64,000 nucleotides of DNA from Callorhinchus milii (lineage: Eukaryota). Made by a program: the position numbers. Shown one piece after another: positions 1-64,000 of the stretch. Within the stretch, counting starts at the first letter, position 1. Each line of letters begins with the position of its first letter. The stretch lies in NCBI RefSeq assembly GCF_018977255.1, contig NW_024704771.1:2108001-2172000 (forward strand), written 5' to 3'.

Positions 1-3000
1 TTTGAAGTCAAATCCACGGCCGGTGATACCCACCTGGGGGGCGAGGACTTTGACAGCCGCATGGTTGACCACTTCATCCAGGAGTTCAAGAGAAAACACA
101 AGAGGGACATCAGCCAGAACAAGAGGGCGGTCAGGAGGCTGAGGACAGCCTGTGAGAGGGCAAAGAGGACTTTGTCTTCAAGCACCCAAGCCGGCATTGA
201 GATCGACTCCCTCTTTGAAGGCATCGACTTCTACACCTCCATCACCAGGGCACGGTTTGAGGAGCTCAATGGGGACCTGTTCAGAGGGACCCTGGAGCCA
301 GTGGAGAAAGCATTAACTGACGCGAAGCTGGACAAGTCTCAGATCCAAGATGTGGTCCTCGTCGGTGGCTCCACTCGCATCCCGAAGATCCAGAAGCTTC
401 TGCAGGATTTCTTCAACGGCCGAGAGCTGAACAAGGGCATCAACCCAGATGAGGCAGTGGCTTATGGTGCGGCTGTGCAAGCCGCCATCCTGATGGGCGA
501 CAAGTCTCAGAACGTGCAGGACCTTCTCCTGCTGGACGTGACTCCTCTGTCCCTGGGGCTGGAGACGGCGGGAGGCGTGATGACCGCCCTCATCAAGAGG
601 AACTCAACCATCCCCACCAAACAGACCCAGTTCTTCACCACCTACTCCGACAACCAGCCCGGCGTCTTGGTGCAAGTGTATGAGGGTGAGAGAGCCATGA
701 CCAAGGACAACAACCTCCTGGGCAAGTTCGAGCTGAGTGGCATCCCCCCGGCCCCCCGTGGGGTTCCGCAGATCCAGGTCACCTTCGACATCGATGCCAA
801 TGGTATCCTGAATGTCTCGGCTGCTGACAAGAGCACAGGCAAGGAGAACAAGATCACCATCACCAACGAGAAGGGTCGGCTGAGCAAGGAGGAGATCGAG
901 AGGATGGTGCAAGAGGCCGAGAACTACAAGGTGGATGACGAGTTGCAGCGGGAGAGGGTGGCGGCCAAGAACGGGCTGGAGTCGTTCGTCTACGCAGCCA
1001 AAAGTGCAATGGAGGACAAGAGCACAGAGGGCAAGGTGGGCGAGGAGGAAAGGAGGCAGGCGCTGGACAAGTGCAGACAGGTCATTGCCTGGCTGGATGG
1101 AAACCAGACGGCGGAGAAGGAAGAGTTTGAGCACCAGCTGAAGGAGCTGGAGAGGGTGTGCAGTCCTGTCATGGCCAGGCTGAGGCAGGGAGGGGCAGCG
1201 GGGAGCGAGCAATCGGGCAAGAGCTGTCCATCTACGGGCCCAACCGTGGAGGAAGTGCATTGAACGTCGCCGATGAACTTCCTGCCACTTTGGCACATGC
1301 TCAGATGATAATCTTTCCCACCTTCGGACACTTGGTTATATCTATGTATGTATATATATATGTGTTTAAATGATAAGTTTGTAGACAGCCACACATATCT
1401 ATATACAGCTTCATGCCAGATATCTGTACACACTGCAGCAGGGCAGGTTTCTGTAAATATGGGAGGACTTTACTTGACGTTTTCGTGGAATATAATATTC
1501 CTTGCATTTGATACTCAATCCAGCACTGTTTGTGGGATGTTGCTGTGTATAATTGATGCTGCATTTCACCCAGAAAATACAGTCACAGCCCTTTACAGTA
1601 TATTCTGTGAAGCACTTTGACATGACTCAACCATGTGATAAGGAGCTATATCAAATGGAAGGATTATTATTGCCACAATTGGAGGCTTTGACGTCTCGAG
1701 GACATTGCAATTCACTTTACAGTGTGTTCTGTGAAGCGCTTTGGGACGTCCTCCCGACGTGAAAAGCGCTATATCAAATGCAAGGATTATTATTATTATT
1801 GCAAGGCGCTACACGGGATTTCACTGTGAAGTTTAGTGACTGCTGTAAAAACTGTATTACTTGGGCTTTCTCTATCTACATCACATTTCAGAGCGTTACG
1901 GAATTTGGCTAATTCTTAAAAACACCTAAAACCTTAATTTTGCAGCTGTACTTTCTGTGAATTCTCGTTCCAGAAAACCCGTTGTCAAATTGAGATTGTT
2001 GTCAAGTTTGTCAAAGTCTGGATATTCTATAATGTTGTAAGAAGTCAATTTAGAACTGATTTGGGTTTTTATTCTATGTACTTAAAAAGCAAAAAATTGC
2101 CGGTGTAAGGAAAGGAGAGAGGGACTACTTGGTAATTCATTCAAAGAGTTGGCATAGGCTCGATGGGCCGAATCGACTCCTTCTGTGCTGTAAGATTGTT
2201 TAATTCTATGTATGTTTTGCTCCAATGATCTGTTGTGAATGTATGTCAATGTGTCAGCAGCGGGATTGTGAATATTATTTTATTAAACAGTTTATACCAG
2301 AGATATTTGTGTGTGTGTGTCGCACAGTGTGTCACACTGCCTCGGATGCTGGAGCTCTCACTTCTCAGTCAGAAGTTTGGGGGTTTAAGCCTCACATCAG
2401 GACATGGAATCACAGAGTCTAACGTGACCCTTCACTGCAGCGCTGGGGAGTTTAGCATTGTCAGAGGCACCGTTCTTTGGTTGAAACATTAAACGGATCT
2501 GCCATCTGTTTGTAAAGATGGACGTTAAAGATCTCCTGCAATTCTATTCGCTAAGACAAAAAGGGTTCTCCTCTCTCTCTCTCACTCCTATTGTCCTGGC
2601 TGACAATCCCCCGAATAAAATCCGTCACTCACTCCATGGCTATTGAGGGGCATCGCTGTGTACAATTAGCTGTTGTATTTCACTCACAAAATACACGGTC
2701 ACTGCATTTTACAATATATTCTATAAAGCGCTTTGAGATTAGAGCAATTGAACACAGCAGTGTCTCACGGATTGAGTGACCAAATTATTATTATTTTTAA
2801 GGGATTACTACCCCAGTAAAGTGATCCACCGATCACCTAATGACTGTGCTCCCACTTCGTGCTTGATAAACAGAGGGTTGTGGAGTAAGGAAACTTGCTT
2901 AAGGAGCAAGGAGGACGTCCCAAGGCACTGATACCAATTACTGGTATGTGAAGGCCTGAACAGAAAGCTCAGTATCATTCACAAGCAAAAAAGAGCAATT

Positions 3001-61200: not shown

Positions 61201-64000
61201 CCCAACCGCCCTACCATCGGTGGCCGGGCCTTCAGCCTCTCAGCCCATAGGCTCTGGAACTCTATCCCCCAGTGCCGTCGCCGCTTCCTCCCTTTCCTCC
61301 TTCAAGGCCGGTCTCAAAACCTTTCTCTTTGACCGAGCCTTCAGCTCCCCTCTCGACTCTCTACCCCCTCCTCGTTCCCTCCCTTCCCTCCCCTCACCCT
61401 GACCATTTCCCCCTTGCTCGGGTCCTGACCCAACTGTACAGTGCCTTGGGACGTCCTCCTGACGTGAAAGGCGCTCTATAAATGGAAACTTGTTGTTGTT
61501 GTGGAAACCCATCACTGTACTTGTGAAGGTCCAAACCAGATTGGGAGCATCTCTTTAAAGAGACAGTGATATAAAATATTAATGCTACATTTAATGCGGA
61601 GCCCAATAACAGTGGATTCCTGTAGCTCAGCGGTTAGAACCCTCTGAGAAGGCAAGTGACAGACCTGGGTTTGATTCCCGGCAGGCGAAATGTTGGGCAA
61701 GTTTCCGTACTGCACACACCTTTGTTTACTTAGCAGTAAGTAGGAACCCGGTTGTTTGTTAATTGGTGGATTGCTTTATCGGGGGTTACATTTTTTTTAG
61801 ATTGGGCACTCAATCAATGACTGTTTGTGGGATACTGCTGTGTGCAATTGGCTGCCGCATTTTGGGCACAAGATATACAATCAATTCACTTTACTGTATA
61901 TTCTGTGATAAGGTGCTATATCAAAAAGGATTACCATTATTGTTATAATAATCCCTGCATTTTATATATTGCCTTAAAAGACTCTGAGATGCTGCGTTGC
62001 GAGCAGAGTGCTACATAAGTGCAAGTTGTTCTTGTATCATATGGAGATGATTCAAAGCACATATTCAAATGTAAATTGCTGCGTTCATCTACTAACACAC
62101 CGTCTTATCGTGAAATTCTGTTAAGTACAGAATTGAGTGAACTGTGGTTTACTCACAGTTGACTGTGTATTCTGTGGATGAAACCCAGCACAATTACTAA
62201 TGGTTTTCACCCACAGAATACACAGTTTACTCACAGGAACTGCACACAGTCATTAAGTGAGTGAGGATTTTTATCCAGAGGATTGTTGACCAGGACACCG
62301 GGAGGGAAACTCCCTTTTCTTTTCAAATAGGCTCTCAGCAACTCCAACAATGTAACGCTGTTTTAATGATTCTGGAATTCAGTGCCAATGTGGGGTCTTG
62401 AACCAACAACCTCCTGACTCAGAAACGAGAGGAAGCCTAACCGAGTCAGGCCAGCACTCACCAAAGACTTTCAGATGAAATGTGAGCTGGTCTCTCTGCC
62501 GCAGCACCGCTCCCAGGTAGTTTGTTTGGATGCGATATTCTGCACTGTCTTCCATGTGCACATTTTTAAGTAACAAAGAGCCATTGACTGTGAGCTGAAC
62601 CCGGTCTCTATAGAGAGGATGGACAATATGTGCATTTCCTATAGAGAAGGGCTGATCAGAATTCCAGCCGAGGATTTTAATTGAGTATGGGCTTTCCCGG
62701 CGAGCTGTCACTTCGTATTTCATGTTGTTGTCGTGAATTACAGGGAACTGGACGTCTTGCCCGACGGAGAGATTGGTGACAGTGTCCGGGATGGCCCACA
62801 CAGCCGGGCTGCCCAGTCTGGCACAGAGCAGGACTGAAAGAGGAGAAACACAGCAAAACATTACAAAGTGCAACACGACTAAGAGGTCCTGAGGTGGGGT
62901 TTGTTGGTGAGTCTACAGTGAGTGGACAGAAACATACAGTTGCCAGCAGCGGATCTAAAAGGGGGTCTTTTCACAGAGGATGGTGAAGAGTGTGGAATCC
63001 ATTAAAACCTATGATTGAAGGTAATAGCATCAACCTGTTTAATTCTAACCGTCAGCCTCCATCCCAATCTCACACCAAGTGCAGCAAACCCCTTATTCAC
63101 ACCTTTGTTAACTCCAACATGATTTCTCAAGCTCTCGTCACTGCTCTCCCCAGTTCCACCATCCACAAGACATACAAAACTCTGCTGCCCGTGTTCTCAT
63201 CCACACTAAACTTCACCAATGAGACATTAAACCGAACTCCCCAACTGCCTGTTCAAGTGGACGTTAATGATAGGGTGACCAGACATCCTCATGGACAGTC
63301 CCTGGATGAGGTGTAGTGCCTCTGGCTAAAATGTGTCCCTGTCGAGTTCAACAACAAACAGAGCAAGAACAACAACATCCTAAACCAGATACACTCCTCA
63401 GAGAAACACAGCCATTAATCCAACGAGCTTCTCCAGTAACCGCCAGCATCAGCAATTGTAGGGAATTCAAGTTTTGTTGTATATTGTTCCCAGATTTGGT
63501 TTGCAAAACATGGTCACTTTATTCTATCAGGACATCAGTGGTCCTGGAGTTGAGTGTGGAGGTACAGAGATAGAGTTGGGTGTCATCCACATAAATGTGG
63601 AAGTTGACCGCATGGCTGTGGATGATGTCACCAAGAGGAAACATGAAGATATTGGAGAGGAGGGGACCAAGGACAGAGCCCTGAGGAACCCCACATGAGA
63701 CTGTGTGAGGACTAGAGGAGAAACTGTTTGTGAAGATGAAGTGGAGACAGTGTGAGAGGTAGGATCTGAACTATTCACGGACAGAACCATGAAGGTGTGG
63801 TGAGCGGAGAGGTGGTGGAAGAGGATAGAGCAATCAACGGTTTCAAAGGTAGCAAAGAACAAAAGGAGGCAGAGGGAGCCCTGGTTGCAGATGGACAAAA
63901 TGTCATTTTTCACTTTCAGCAAAGCTGTTTCTGTGCTGTGGGCAACATAGAAACCTGATTAGAGGGGTTTGTGAAGGGAGCGGTGGGAGAAGAGAGAGCA

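What the first reader, a model, noticed from the sequence alone, without database searches (positions are those of the whole stretch)
1..62833. HSP70 + TRIM-B30.2 + butyrophilin + CD2/SLAM receptor within 64 kb: MHC-like or primordial immune-complex segment
Seen: the four families are physically linked here. Established: in humans, intronless HSPA1 genes lie in MHC class III, and B30.2 TRIMs (TRIM10/15/26/27/39) and BTN/BTNL genes lie in the MHC or extended MHC, while CD2/SLAM genes lie on chromosome 1, an MHC paralogon. Inference: in a probable cartilaginous fish, this linkage could preserve an ancestral pre-duplication arrangement.
[Added by the scan's program, not by the reader: the finding's places include an assembly gap (unread letters, written N; its length is only estimated) at 25893 to 26807, 51841 to 52070, 53623 to 54305. 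Whether the letters on both sides are continuous or in frame is not known: test that first.]
Basis: partly seen in the sequence, partly recalled or inferred. Interest (0 to 1): 0.65.

Follow-up and report, generated by a model that had tools for sequence, protein, structure and literature searches.

The report
Elephant-shark TRIM–butyrophilin immune gene cluster
This stretch of elephant-shark DNA carries a heat-shock gene, two damaged TRIM genes, a butyrophilin and a CD2/SLAM-like receptor side by side, much like the surroundings of the human MHC, but its fine structure is recent rather than frozen from an ancestor.

Summary
The window comes from Callorhinchus milii: two exons are 100% identical to NCBI models on a 4,116,489-bp contig.

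All four families are present:
- An intronless cytosolic HSP70 3' part.
- Two class-IV TRIM genes. They are inverted duplicates, and each carries a 2-bp frameshift.
- One IgV-IgC-TM-B30.2 butyrophilin.
- One V-C2-TM receptor. It is CD2/SLAM-like by fold and cysteine pattern, but CEACAM-like by sequence profile, and no ITSM was found.

The three assembly gaps are intergenic and no gene model crosses them. However, the TRIM|BTN and BTN|receptor joins rest on them.

The same scaffold carries 10 further TRIM-type and 9 further BTN-type model rows, so this is a multigene cluster.

The local structure is young:
- The TRIM copies are 80-86% identical, introns included.
- The butyrophilin B30.2 exon is as close to the neighbouring TRIM B30.2 exons (dS 0.28-0.33) as those are to each other (0.27).
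- B30.2 domains group by lineage, not by gene family (AU p = 9e-46).

The neighbourhood is MHC-type or paralogon-type at family level, which is a published idea. It is not a preserved pre-duplication arrangement. Chromosomal placement could not be tested.

The parts
1..1263 (+). 3' part (420 codons plus stop) of an intronless cytosolic HSP70 gene. It ends in EEVH instead of the usual EEVD.
   Evidence: Single ORF. Pfam HSP70 E 4.4e-146, profile positions 210-598 of 599. PDB: HSPA1A 745.6 bits, HSPA2 740.4 bits. Last codons read.
5888..11285 (+). TRIM-A, a class-IV TRIM (RING, B-box, coiled coil, PRY/SPRY). Exons: 5888-6307, 6999-7097, 7320-7559, about 8591-8728, and 10716 to about 11285. A 2-bp deletion at 11062/11063 shifts the frame inside SPRY.
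   Evidence: Pfam RING 4e-14, B-box 7.4e-9, PRY 5.7e-20, SPRY 9.4e-10; TRIM_CC only 2.4e-4, below its cut-off. DNA alignments A1 and A2. tblastn with P0061.
16955..20790 (-). TRIM-B, the inverted duplicate of TRIM-A. RING codons run from the ATG at 20418. A 2-bp deletion at about 20180 separates RING from the B-box frame (20225-20001). One B-box cysteine codon reads glycine. Further exons: 19656-19558, 19342-19103, 18406-18287, and PRY/SPRY 17548-16955. The NCBI model P0061 starts at 20790-20656 and skips the RING.
   Evidence: blastn 80.7-86.5% to TRIM-A, including 1489 bp of mostly intronic sequence (it also spans two short coiled-coil exons). Alignment A2. Pfam PRY 2.4e-22, SPRY 2.2e-23. 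P0061 is 100% identical and carries only PRY/SPRY Pfam domains.
25893..26807 (.). Assembly gap 1. It is intergenic, between the 5' ends of TRIM-B and the butyrophilin gene, which are head to head.
   Evidence: No model maps across it.
30552..40926 (+). Butyrophilin gene (IgV-IgC-TM-B30.2). Exons: leader 30552-30620, IgV 32912-33265, IgC 33471 to about 33760, TM 36059-36184, 37900-37926, B30.2 40402-40926.
   Evidence: P0003, 'butyrophilin subfamily 1 member A1 isoform X2 [C. milii]', is 100% identical over the IgV exon. Exon map by tblastn. Pfam PRY 3.7e-24, SPRY 5.7e-23 on the last exon.
38000..40300 (+). About 2.3 kb of C/A-rich low-complexity sequence in the last butyrophilin intron. It gives long artefactual open frames.
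   Evidence: GC skew -0.86 at 38001-40000. ORFs of 533-601 aa made almost only of P, H, T and S.
51841..52070 (.). Assembly gap 2. Intergenic, just after a (GAGA)n-type array (50871-51810).
53623..54305 (.). Assembly gap 3. Intergenic, just after a GT-rich tandem array with a 15-bp unit (52704-53592).
57457..62840 (-). Two-Ig receptor gene. Exons: leader end plus a V domain without cysteines 62840-62406; C2 domain with four cysteines 60034-59741; TM exon 59269-59161 (phase 1 in, phase 2 out). A possible last exon at about 58395-58325 has an ITIM-like VxYxxV motif; it is unconfirmed. The NCBI X3 terminal exon 57591-57457 is repeat-like.
   Evidence: P0001 is 100% identical. tblastn map, with a second copy of the X3 tail at 47885-47981. 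Splice sites read. PDB profile search. Fold search.
3130..3801 (-). Remnant of a DDE transposase (pogo/Tigger type by its Pfam family).
   Evidence: Pfam DDE_1 3.1e-9.

Best explanation
The window is a 64-kb piece of a 4.1-Mb Callorhinchus milii scaffold that holds a multigene cluster of class-IV TRIM genes and butyrophilin genes.

At one edge of the window lies an intronless cytosolic HSP70 gene. At the other lies a type-I membrane receptor with a cysteine-free V domain and a four-cysteine C2 domain, of the CD2/SLAM-CEACAM kind.

At the level of gene families this is the neighbourhood known from the MHC class III and extended class I regions, and also from the MHC paralogon on human chromosome 1.

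At the level of individual genes the arrangement is recent and dynamic.
- The two TRIM genes arose by an inverted duplication in the chimaera lineage, and both now carry a 2-bp frameshift.
- The butyrophilin's intracellular B30.2 exon shares recent ancestry with the B30.2 exons of the neighbouring TRIM genes.

Shown: the genes, the frameshifts, the duplication, and the lineage-wise grouping of B30.2 domains.

Inferred:
- The cluster evolves by birth-and-death together with exon exchange or gene conversion between linked TRIM and BTN genes.
- The TRIM copies here are pseudogenes, or in the case of TRIM-B a RING-less form.
- The family-level linkage, not the gene order, is the old feature.
For: Source and annotation.

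Cluster size on the same 4,116,489-bp contig:
- 10 of the 36 hits carry that contig length. All are BTN-type, in 7 IgV identity classes (100, 94, 81, 79, 74, 71, 65%). One of them is the window's own gene.
- 12 of the 120 rows listed carry it: 10 TRIM-type and 2 BTN. One is TRIM-B itself.

Duplication and conversion:
- Inverted duplication with 80.7% identity over 1489 bp, mostly intron.
- The first 97 aligned bases of exon 1 are identical between the copies, while the rest diverges. This fits a conversion tract.

Frameshifts. The NCBI model of TRIM-B bypasses the RING.

B30.2 exon relationships:
- The butyrophilin B30.2 exon is 79.7% identical in DNA to the TRIM-A exon, and the similarity starts at the exon border.
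- dS is 0.267 for TRIM-A versus TRIM-B, 0.277 for TRIM-A versus BTN, and 0.331 for TRIM-B versus BTN.

B30.2 tree of 93 rows:
- One clade with SH-aLRT 96 holds 13 C. milii TRIM rows, 8 C. milii BTN rows and TRIM-A.
- Gar TRIM and BTN domains are sisters (95).
- Holding all 19 BTN-linked B30.2 rows together costs 565.6 log-likelihood units (AU p = 8.95e-46).

Literature for the family-level linkage:
- PMC3137616, abstract and discussion passages.
- PMC8813856, passages.
- PMC2266713, Table 1.
- PMC10751288, figure legend and Results.
Against: - No MHC hallmark gene (class I, class II, TAP, PSMB8/9, C4) was seen in the window. The chromosome could not be determined.
- The TRIM|BTN and BTN|receptor joins rest on assembly gaps.
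- Monophyly of the 10 C. milii BTN B30.2 rows is not rejected (AU p = 0.209). One acquisition in the chimaera lineage, followed by BTN duplication, therefore explains the C. milii data as well as repeated exchange does.
- The tree rows were hand-picked: 93 from the 257 B30.2 stretches kept, all from hit lists ranked by likeness to a C. milii TRIM. The method was 'quick'. The BTN and TRIM labels rest on the nearest upstream module in predicted, sometimes run-on, gene models.
- In the sturgeon/paddlefish clade no row has a detected RING.
- The 2-bp frameshifts could be assembly errors.
- HSP70 orthology to HSPA1 is unresolved (745.6 versus 740.4 bits).
Confidence: 0.75

Rival explanations
1. The segment is a relic that preserves the ancestral arrangement from before the genome duplications, in which HSP70, TRIM, butyrophilin and CD2/SLAM genes lay together. 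It would be a piece of the 'primordial immune complex' kept intact in a cartilaginous fish.
For: - All four families lie within 63 kb.
- slamf is named among genes on the white-shark MHC chromosome (legend of Fig. 2 of PMC10751288).
Against: - C. milii has four MHC paralogous regions (PMC10751288, Fig. 5 legend), so its genome is post-duplication.
- The genes in the window are young paralogues. The TRIM pair is 80-86% identical with introns included. B30.2 dS is 0.27-0.33. B30.2 domains form lineage-specific clades.
- The four families are also found together on human chromosome 1q. HSPA6/7 are cited and TRIM11/17. The SLAM cluster and BTNL10 are from memory.
Confidence: 0.1
2. The linkage has no MHC meaning. 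TRIM-B30.2 and butyrophilin genes have expanded massively in the chimaera and are scattered. An HSP70 gene and an Ig receptor lie next to one such cluster by chance.
For: - Both families are very large. 2228 proteins reached E <= 1e-10 among the 3210 candidates of the B30.2 search, and many listed rows are C. milii. All 36 hits of the IgV search are C. milii.
- No MHC hallmark gene lies in the window.
- The linkage is a single observation with no statistic.
Against: - The same family pairings recur in human and chicken MHC regions.
- Run-on gene models joining RING/B-box and Ig modules occur in independent assemblies of gar (P0065), sawfish (P0050) and a caecilian (P0051). This shows TRIM-BTN adjacency elsewhere.
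- slamf is on the shark MHC chromosome.
Confidence: 0.15
3. The four-family linkage is partly an assembly artefact. One or more of the three gaps joins pieces that are not neighbours in the genome.
For: - Three gaps split the window into four blocks. Each of the three gene groups sits in its own block.
- The gaps follow or sit among repeats.
Against: - HSP70 and both TRIM genes lie in one gap-free block.
- Ten TRIM-type and ten BTN-type model rows share the 4.1-Mb scaffold, so TRIM-BTN linkage does not hang on gap 1 alone.
- Gaps 2 and 3 follow tandem arrays, which is the usual cause of a local sequencing gap.
Confidence: 0.07

Closest known systems
Human extended MHC class I and class III regions (BTN1A1/BTN2/BTN3 cluster; TRIM10/15/26/27/31/38/39/40; HSPA1A/B/L)
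   Same: Class-IV TRIM genes, IgV-IgC-TM-B30.2 butyrophilins and single-exon HSP70 genes lie on one chromosome segment (PMC8813856 passages; PMC2266713 Table 1).
   Different: Here the families lie within 41 kb rather than megabases apart. The genes are lineage-specific paralogues, not one-to-one orthologues. A V-C2 receptor of CD2/SLAM-CEACAM kind sits beside them. Linkage to class I and class II genes was not shown.
Chicken B locus TRIM and BG regions
   Same: A TRIM-B30.2 cluster lies next to a multigene family of butyrophilin relatives. That family shows copy-number change and sequence exchange (PMC8813856 passages; PMC4046983 seen in a search listing only).
   Different: Chicken BG proteins lack the C2 and B30.2 domains. 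The chimaera genes keep the full butyrophilin architecture.
Human chromosome 1q MHC paralogon (HSPA6/HSPA7, SLAM/CD2 cluster, TRIM11/TRIM17, BTNL10)
   Same: The same four families occur. Single-exon HSPA6/7 lie at 1q23.3. TRIM11/17 lie in an MHC paralogous region. The SLAM cluster and BTNL10 locations are from memory.
   Different: On 1q the families are spread over tens of megabases. Orthology of any window gene to a 1q gene was not tested.
Teleost finTRIM / NLR B30.2 exon shuffling
   Same: A B30.2 exon is shared between a TRIM multigene family and another immune gene family (PMC2657112 and bioRxiv 10.1101/027151, both seen in a search listing only).
   Different: The partner family here is butyrophilin and the species is a chimaera.
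CD2/SLAM family and CEACAM family receptors
   Same: Both have an N-terminal V domain without the canonical disulfide, followed by a C2 domain and a TM segment. The best Foldseek matches are CD48, CD2, CD58 and NTB-A. The best profile matches are CEA and CEACAM1.
   Different: No TxYxxV/I switch motif was found. Sequence scores favour CEACAM while fold scores favour CD2/SLAM, so no family assignment is made.

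Membership tests
HSP70 (Pfam PF00012), cytosolic HSPA1/2/8 group | Full-length match to the HSP70 profile, and best similarity to cytosolic members | tested here: met
   E 4.4e-146 over profile positions 210-598. HSPA1A 745.6, HSPA2 740.4, HSC70 fragments 649.9, BiP 460.6 bits. The N-terminal 209 profile positions lie outside the window.
MHC class III HSPA1 orthologue | Intronless coding region | tested here: met
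   420 codons in one frame without interruption. The same holds for human HSPA6, HSPA7 and the HSPA1 genes (Table 1 of PMC2266713), so this is not specific to HSPA1.
MHC class III HSPA1 orthologue | Groups with HSPA1 rather than HSPA2, HSPA6 or HSPA8 in a tree | tested here: inconclusive
   Only bit scores against PDB chains are available: 745.6 (HSPA1A) versus 740.4 (HSPA2). No tree was built.
Canonical cytosolic HSP70 | C-terminal EEVD motif (recalled as the co-chaperone docking site) | tested here: not met
   The last four codons read EEVH and are followed by TGA.
Class-IV TRIM (RBCC-B30.2) | RING, B-box, coiled coil and PRY/SPRY in this order | tested here: met
   TRIM-A: RING 4e-14, B-box 7.4e-9, PRY 5.7e-20, SPRY 9.4e-10. 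The coiled coil scores only 21.4 bits against a cut-off of 30. Searched exon by exon.
Class-IV TRIM (RBCC-B30.2) | One uninterrupted reading frame through all modules | tested here: not met
   A 2-bp deletion in the SPRY exon of TRIM-A. A 2-bp deletion between RING and B-box of TRIM-B, plus a Cys-to-Gly change in its B-box.
Butyrophilin | IgV, IgC, transmembrane segment and intracellular B30.2 in one gene | tested here: met
   The exons map in order on the + strand. The NCBI model P0003 carries V-set, PF22705, PRY and SPRY Pfam entries. PRY and SPRY are on the last exon. Whether transcripts support the splice from the TM exons to the B30.2 exon was not seen.
CD2/SLAM family | V domain without the canonical disulfide, followed by a C2 domain with two cysteine pairs (feature list recalled) | tested here: met
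   No cysteine in the V domain and four in the C2 exon. The pattern is largely kept in 13 relatives. CEACAM N domains also lack the disulfide (recalled).
CD2/SLAM family | Closer to CD2/SLAM members than to other Ig receptors | tested here: inconclusive
   Foldseek ranks 1-9 are CD48, CD2, CD58, an amphioxus IgVJ-C2 and NTB-A (5.1e-12 to 4.1e-9), with CEACAM1b at rank 16. The sequence profile gives CEA 80.8 and CEACAM1 76.5 bits against CD48-CD2 49.5, SLAMF6 45.8 and CD2 40.9. The Atlas gives 0.92 for both kinds.
SLAM subfamily | Cytoplasmic TxYxxV/I switch motifs | tested here: not met
   The scan of 54306-59165(-) gave 16 [TSVIL]xYxx[VIL] motif matches in all. The four with T at -2 (TVYYFL, TKYSNI, TFYLAL, TVYLWV) were not examined for splice sites. 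I judged them unlikely from their frame context and from repeat-like surroundings. Only an ITIM-like VxYxxV lies in a possible last exon. The cytoplasmic exons are not identified and could lie beyond gap 3, so this is weak.
MHC region | Linkage to class I/II, TAP, PSMB8/9, C4 or framework genes | not testable with these tools
   None of these was seen in the 64 kb. No eukaryotic genome collection or chromosome map was on hand. The supplementary files of PMC10751288, which may hold the C. milii maps, are closed.

The most novel reading that the evidence does not exclude
Physical linkage of TRIM and butyrophilin genes is kept across jawed vertebrates because it lets the two families share one evolving intracellular sensor module. 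B30.2 exons are repeatedly copied or converted between neighbouring TRIM and BTN genes in each lineage. As a result, a membrane-bound family (BTN) and a cytosolic E3-ligase family (TRIM) track the same ligands. The chimaera cluster in this window would be a live example, with a conversion tract and decaying donor copies still visible.
Probability: 0.3. Interest if true: 0.6.

Novelty: new member of a known kind. Interest (0 to 1): 0.35.

Why it matters
Holocephalans are called data-deficient for MHC architecture in the most recent survey (PMC10751288, concluding remarks). An annotated chimaera segment with HSP70, TRIM, butyrophilin and a CD2/SLAM-like receptor together adds a data point to the long-standing idea that B30.2 TRIM genes belonged to the ancestral MHC (PMC3137616).

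The more useful result is a caution. Family-level linkage can be old while every gene in it is young. Such segments therefore cannot be read as frozen ancestral maps.

The lineage-wise grouping of butyrophilin and TRIM B30.2 domains also suggests a testable reason for the linkage.

Tried and rejected
I went on with single open frames and exons.
The other isoforms of the receptor model, which might show its cytoplasmic tail, stayed unseen.
- Search for SLAM-type switch motifs. 16 [TSVIL]xYxx[VIL] matches were found on the minus strand of 54306-59165. Two sit in a (CTGTA)n microrepeat and most of the rest in repeat-derived frames. One ITIM-like motif lies in a possible last exon, but its reading phase does not fit a direct splice from the TM exon.
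- tblastn with 15 relatives found only the V and C2 exons, plus one repeat-like tail match (P0157, 56720-56652) and two weak off-target hits. No cytoplasmic exon was found.
- The AU test of one clade for the 10 C. milii BTN B30.2 rows was not rejected (p = 0.209). I therefore do not claim several exchanges within the chimaera.
- The bacterial promoter/terminator scan after HSP70 does not apply to a vertebrate and is ignored.
- Ten further long open frames gave only two reverse-transcriptase matches and no further gene.
- Rfam and ARAGORN found only one tRNA-like element.
- Paper searches for the four families together in cartilaginous fish, for CEACAM or SLAM in the elephant shark and for BTNL10/TRIM11 paralogy gave no paper describing this segment. 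The main text of PMC10751288 has 0 occurrences of HSP70, HSPA, TRIM, butyrophilin or BTN, and 1 of slam.
- I considered a fold or complex prediction for the BTN and TRIM B30.2 domains and left it out, because no binding claim is made.

Full report
SOURCE AND GAPS. The window is from the elephant shark, Callorhinchus milii, not from a human. The receptor V exon (62457-62789, minus strand) and the butyrophilin IgV exon (32927-33265) are each 100% identical to NCBI models of that species. Both models sit on a contig of 4,116,489 bp. The three runs of N are at 25893-26807, 51841-52070 and 53623-54305, and I tested them first. No exon touches a gap, and none of the three NCBI models that I mapped back crosses one. 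Gap 2 follows a (GAGA)n-type array and gap 3 follows a 15-bp-unit GT-rich array. Gap 1 has no tandem array next to it. HSP70 and both TRIM genes share the gap-free block 1-25892. The butyrophilin gene lies in 26808-51840 and the receptor in 54306-64000. The TRIM|BTN join and the BTN|receptor join therefore rest on the scaffold, and the window alone cannot prove them. The gaps were not filled.

THE GENES. I searched every spliced gene exon by exon. Where a whole protein was needed I used the NCBI model that the tool returned.
1. HSP70. Bases 1-1263 are one open frame of 420 codons. It matches Pfam HSP70 positions 210-598 (E 4.4e-146). It scores 745.6 bits with human HSPA1A and 740.4 with HSPA2. 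It is therefore an intronless cytosolic HSP70 whose orthology is open. It ends in EEVH rather than EEVD.
2. TRIM-A, plus strand. Exons are 5888-6307, 6999-7097, 7320-7559, about 8591-8728, and 10716 to about 11285. It has RING, B-box, a weak coiled-coil match and PRY/SPRY. A 2-bp deletion at 11062/11063 breaks the SPRY frame.
3. TRIM-B, minus strand, 20418 to 16955. It is the inverted duplicate of TRIM-A, 80.7-86.5% identical in DNA, including 1489 bp of mostly intronic sequence. A 2-bp deletion separates its RING from its B-box, and one B-box cysteine codon reads glycine. The NCBI model ('zinc-binding protein A33-like', P0061) starts in an upstream exon, skips the RING and carries only PRY/SPRY Pfam entries.
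4. Butyrophilin, plus strand, 30552-40926. It has leader, IgV, IgC, TM, a small exon and a B30.2 exon. It equals 'butyrophilin subfamily 1 member A1 isoform X2'. Its last intron holds about 2.3 kb of C/A-rich low-complexity sequence.
5. Receptor, minus strand. It has a V domain without cysteines (62840-62406), a C2 domain with four cysteines (60034-59741) and a TM exon with good splice sites (59269-59161). The last exon of the NCBI isoform X3 has a second copy at 47885-47981 and is probably repeat-derived.

WHICH FAMILY IS THE RECEPTOR? NCBI calls it 'hepatocyte cell adhesion molecule-like'. A full HMMER search of 1.84 billion representatives gave 620 proteins at E <= 0.001. I aligned the model with 13 two-domain relatives of 32-45% identity.
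- The alignment's profile scores best with CEA (80.8 bits) and CEACAM1 (76.5 and 70.3). CD48-CD2 (49.5), SLAMF6 (45.8), CD58 (43.9) and CD2 (40.9) score lower.
- An AlphaFold model built on that alignment has mean pLDDT 76.1 and is good over residues 20-223. It gives the opposite order in Foldseek. CD48, CD2, CD58, an amphioxus IgVJ-C2 and NTB-A/SLAMF6 fill ranks 1-9, and CEACAM1b is at rank 16, although the TM-scores are similar.
- The Atlas lists CEACAM5-like, PSG-like and SLAMF5-like clusters, all at 0.92.
- The four-cysteine C2 pattern fits CD2/SLAM. That feature list is from memory.
- I found no TxYxxV/I switch motif in an exon I could tie to the gene.
I therefore file it as a CD2/SLAM-CEACAM-kind receptor and not as a SLAM gene.

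A MULTIGENE CLUSTER WITH YOUNG PARTS. They fall into 7 identity classes. Of the 120 rows listed by the B30.2 search (of 2228 hits), 12 carry it: 10 TRIM-type and 2 BTN. The window is thus one corner of a large TRIM/BTN cluster.

The butyrophilin B30.2 exon is 79.7% identical in DNA to that of TRIM-A, and the likeness starts at the exon border. Synonymous distances are 0.267 for TRIM-A versus TRIM-B, 0.277 for TRIM-A versus BTN and 0.331 for TRIM-B versus BTN. The dN/dS ratios are 0.76, 0.76 and 0.49. The first 97 aligned bases of TRIM exon 1 are identical between the two copies while the rest diverges. This looks like a conversion tract.

For a tree I found B30.2 stretches in 143 of 155 stored proteins and kept 257 stretches of at least 140 profile positions. 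I labelled each by its nearest upstream module. I hand-picked 92 rows from 57 proteins: 24 C. milii, 14 elasmobranch, 9 sturgeon/paddlefish, 1 gar, 3 amphibian, 1 lungfish and 5 teleost. I added the part of TRIM-A before its frameshift. All other rows were left out, among them the many-domain teleost models P0038-P0048 and most UniProt duplicates.

In the quick IQ-TREE tree:
- 13 C. milii TRIM rows, 8 C. milii BTN rows and TRIM-A form one clade (SH-aLRT 96).
- Two more C. milii BTN rows (P0022, P0024) and both P0052 domains lie outside it.
- Gar TRIM and BTN domains are sisters (95).
- Caecilian TRIM and BTN domains group together (94).
- Sturgeon/paddlefish BTN domains group with unlabelled B30.2 domains (99).

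Forcing all 19 BTN-linked rows into one clade costs 565.6 log-likelihood units (AU p = 8.95e-46). Forcing only the 10 C. milii BTN rows together is not rejected (p = 0.209). So B30.2 domains follow lineage, not gene family. Whether that comes from one acquisition per lineage or from repeated conversion is open.

Linkage of B30.2 TRIM genes with the MHC and its paralogues, and the proposal that they belonged to the ancestral MHC, are in print (PMC3137616, abstract and discussion). So are the TRIM and butyrophilin/BG regions beside the human and chicken MHC (PMC8813856 passages). The presence of slamf on the white-shark MHC chromosome appears in a figure legend of PMC10751288. That paper's main text does not mention HSP70, TRIM or butyrophilin, and it calls holocephalans data-deficient. 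My searches found no paper describing this segment. Its supplements, which may, are closed.

The window fits the family-level picture. It cannot be 'pre-duplication', since C. milii has four paralogous regions. Its gene order is recent. The four families also cannot tell the MHC from the chromosome-1-type paralogon. Human 1q23.3 has single-exon HSPA6/7, and TRIM11/17 lie in a paralogous region. From memory, the SLAM cluster and BTNL10 lie on 1q too. No MHC hallmark gene is in the window.

VERDICT. Its strong form is not supported. The lineage-wise B30.2 grouping is the part worth following.

Noticed in passing
window 1249-1263: The HSP70 gene ends in EEVH followed by TGA. The usual ending of cytosolic HSP70 is EEVD, recalled as the docking site for TPR co-chaperones. 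The difference is one base in the last codon.
   Followed up: partly
window 5860-5956 versus 20446-20350: The first 97 aligned bases of TRIM exon 1 (5' UTR, start codon and first 23 codons) are identical in TRIM-A and TRIM-B, while the rest of the exon diverges. This looks like a gene-conversion tract or a strongly constrained 5' end.
   Followed up: partly
window 4460-4530 (-), with 4215-4445: A tRNA-Ala-like element (ARAGORN; Rfam tRNA 40.2 bits) lies next to an interspersed repeat. That repeat has copies at 9123-9354 (97%), 32564-32795 (94%) and 55434-55636 (85%). It is probably the head of a tRNA-derived SINE, not a tRNA gene.
   Followed up: partly
window 57457-57591 (-) and 47885-47981: The last coding exon of the NCBI receptor isoform X3 has a second copy 10 kb away. 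The tail of a related model (P0157) maps to another repeat-like frame at 56652-56720. These soluble-looking isoforms may be annotation artefacts from exonised repeats.
   Followed up: partly
window 38000-40300: About 2.3 kb of C/A-rich low-complexity DNA (GC skew -0.86) gives stop-free frames of up to 601 codons made of P, H, T and S. It sits in the intron before the butyrophilin B30.2 exon.
   Followed up: no
window 3130-3801 (-); 16148-16582, 44092-44745 (+); 46242-46970 (-): A pogo/Tigger-type DDE transposase remnant and several reverse-transcriptase fragments. Much of the intergenic space is interspersed repeats.
   Followed up: partly
proteins P0050 (sawfish), P0051 (caecilian), P0065 (gar): Single predicted proteins carry both RING/B-box and Ig (V-set or PF22705) Pfam entries together with two to four B30.2 domains. 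They are probably run-on models across adjacent TRIM and butyrophilin genes, which would show the same adjacency in other vertebrates.
   Followed up: partly
proteins P0054, P0100, P0109, P0111, P0124, P0133: Sturgeon and paddlefish butyrophilin models carry two or three B30.2 domains in tandem. The first and second domains form separate groups in the tree.
   Followed up: no
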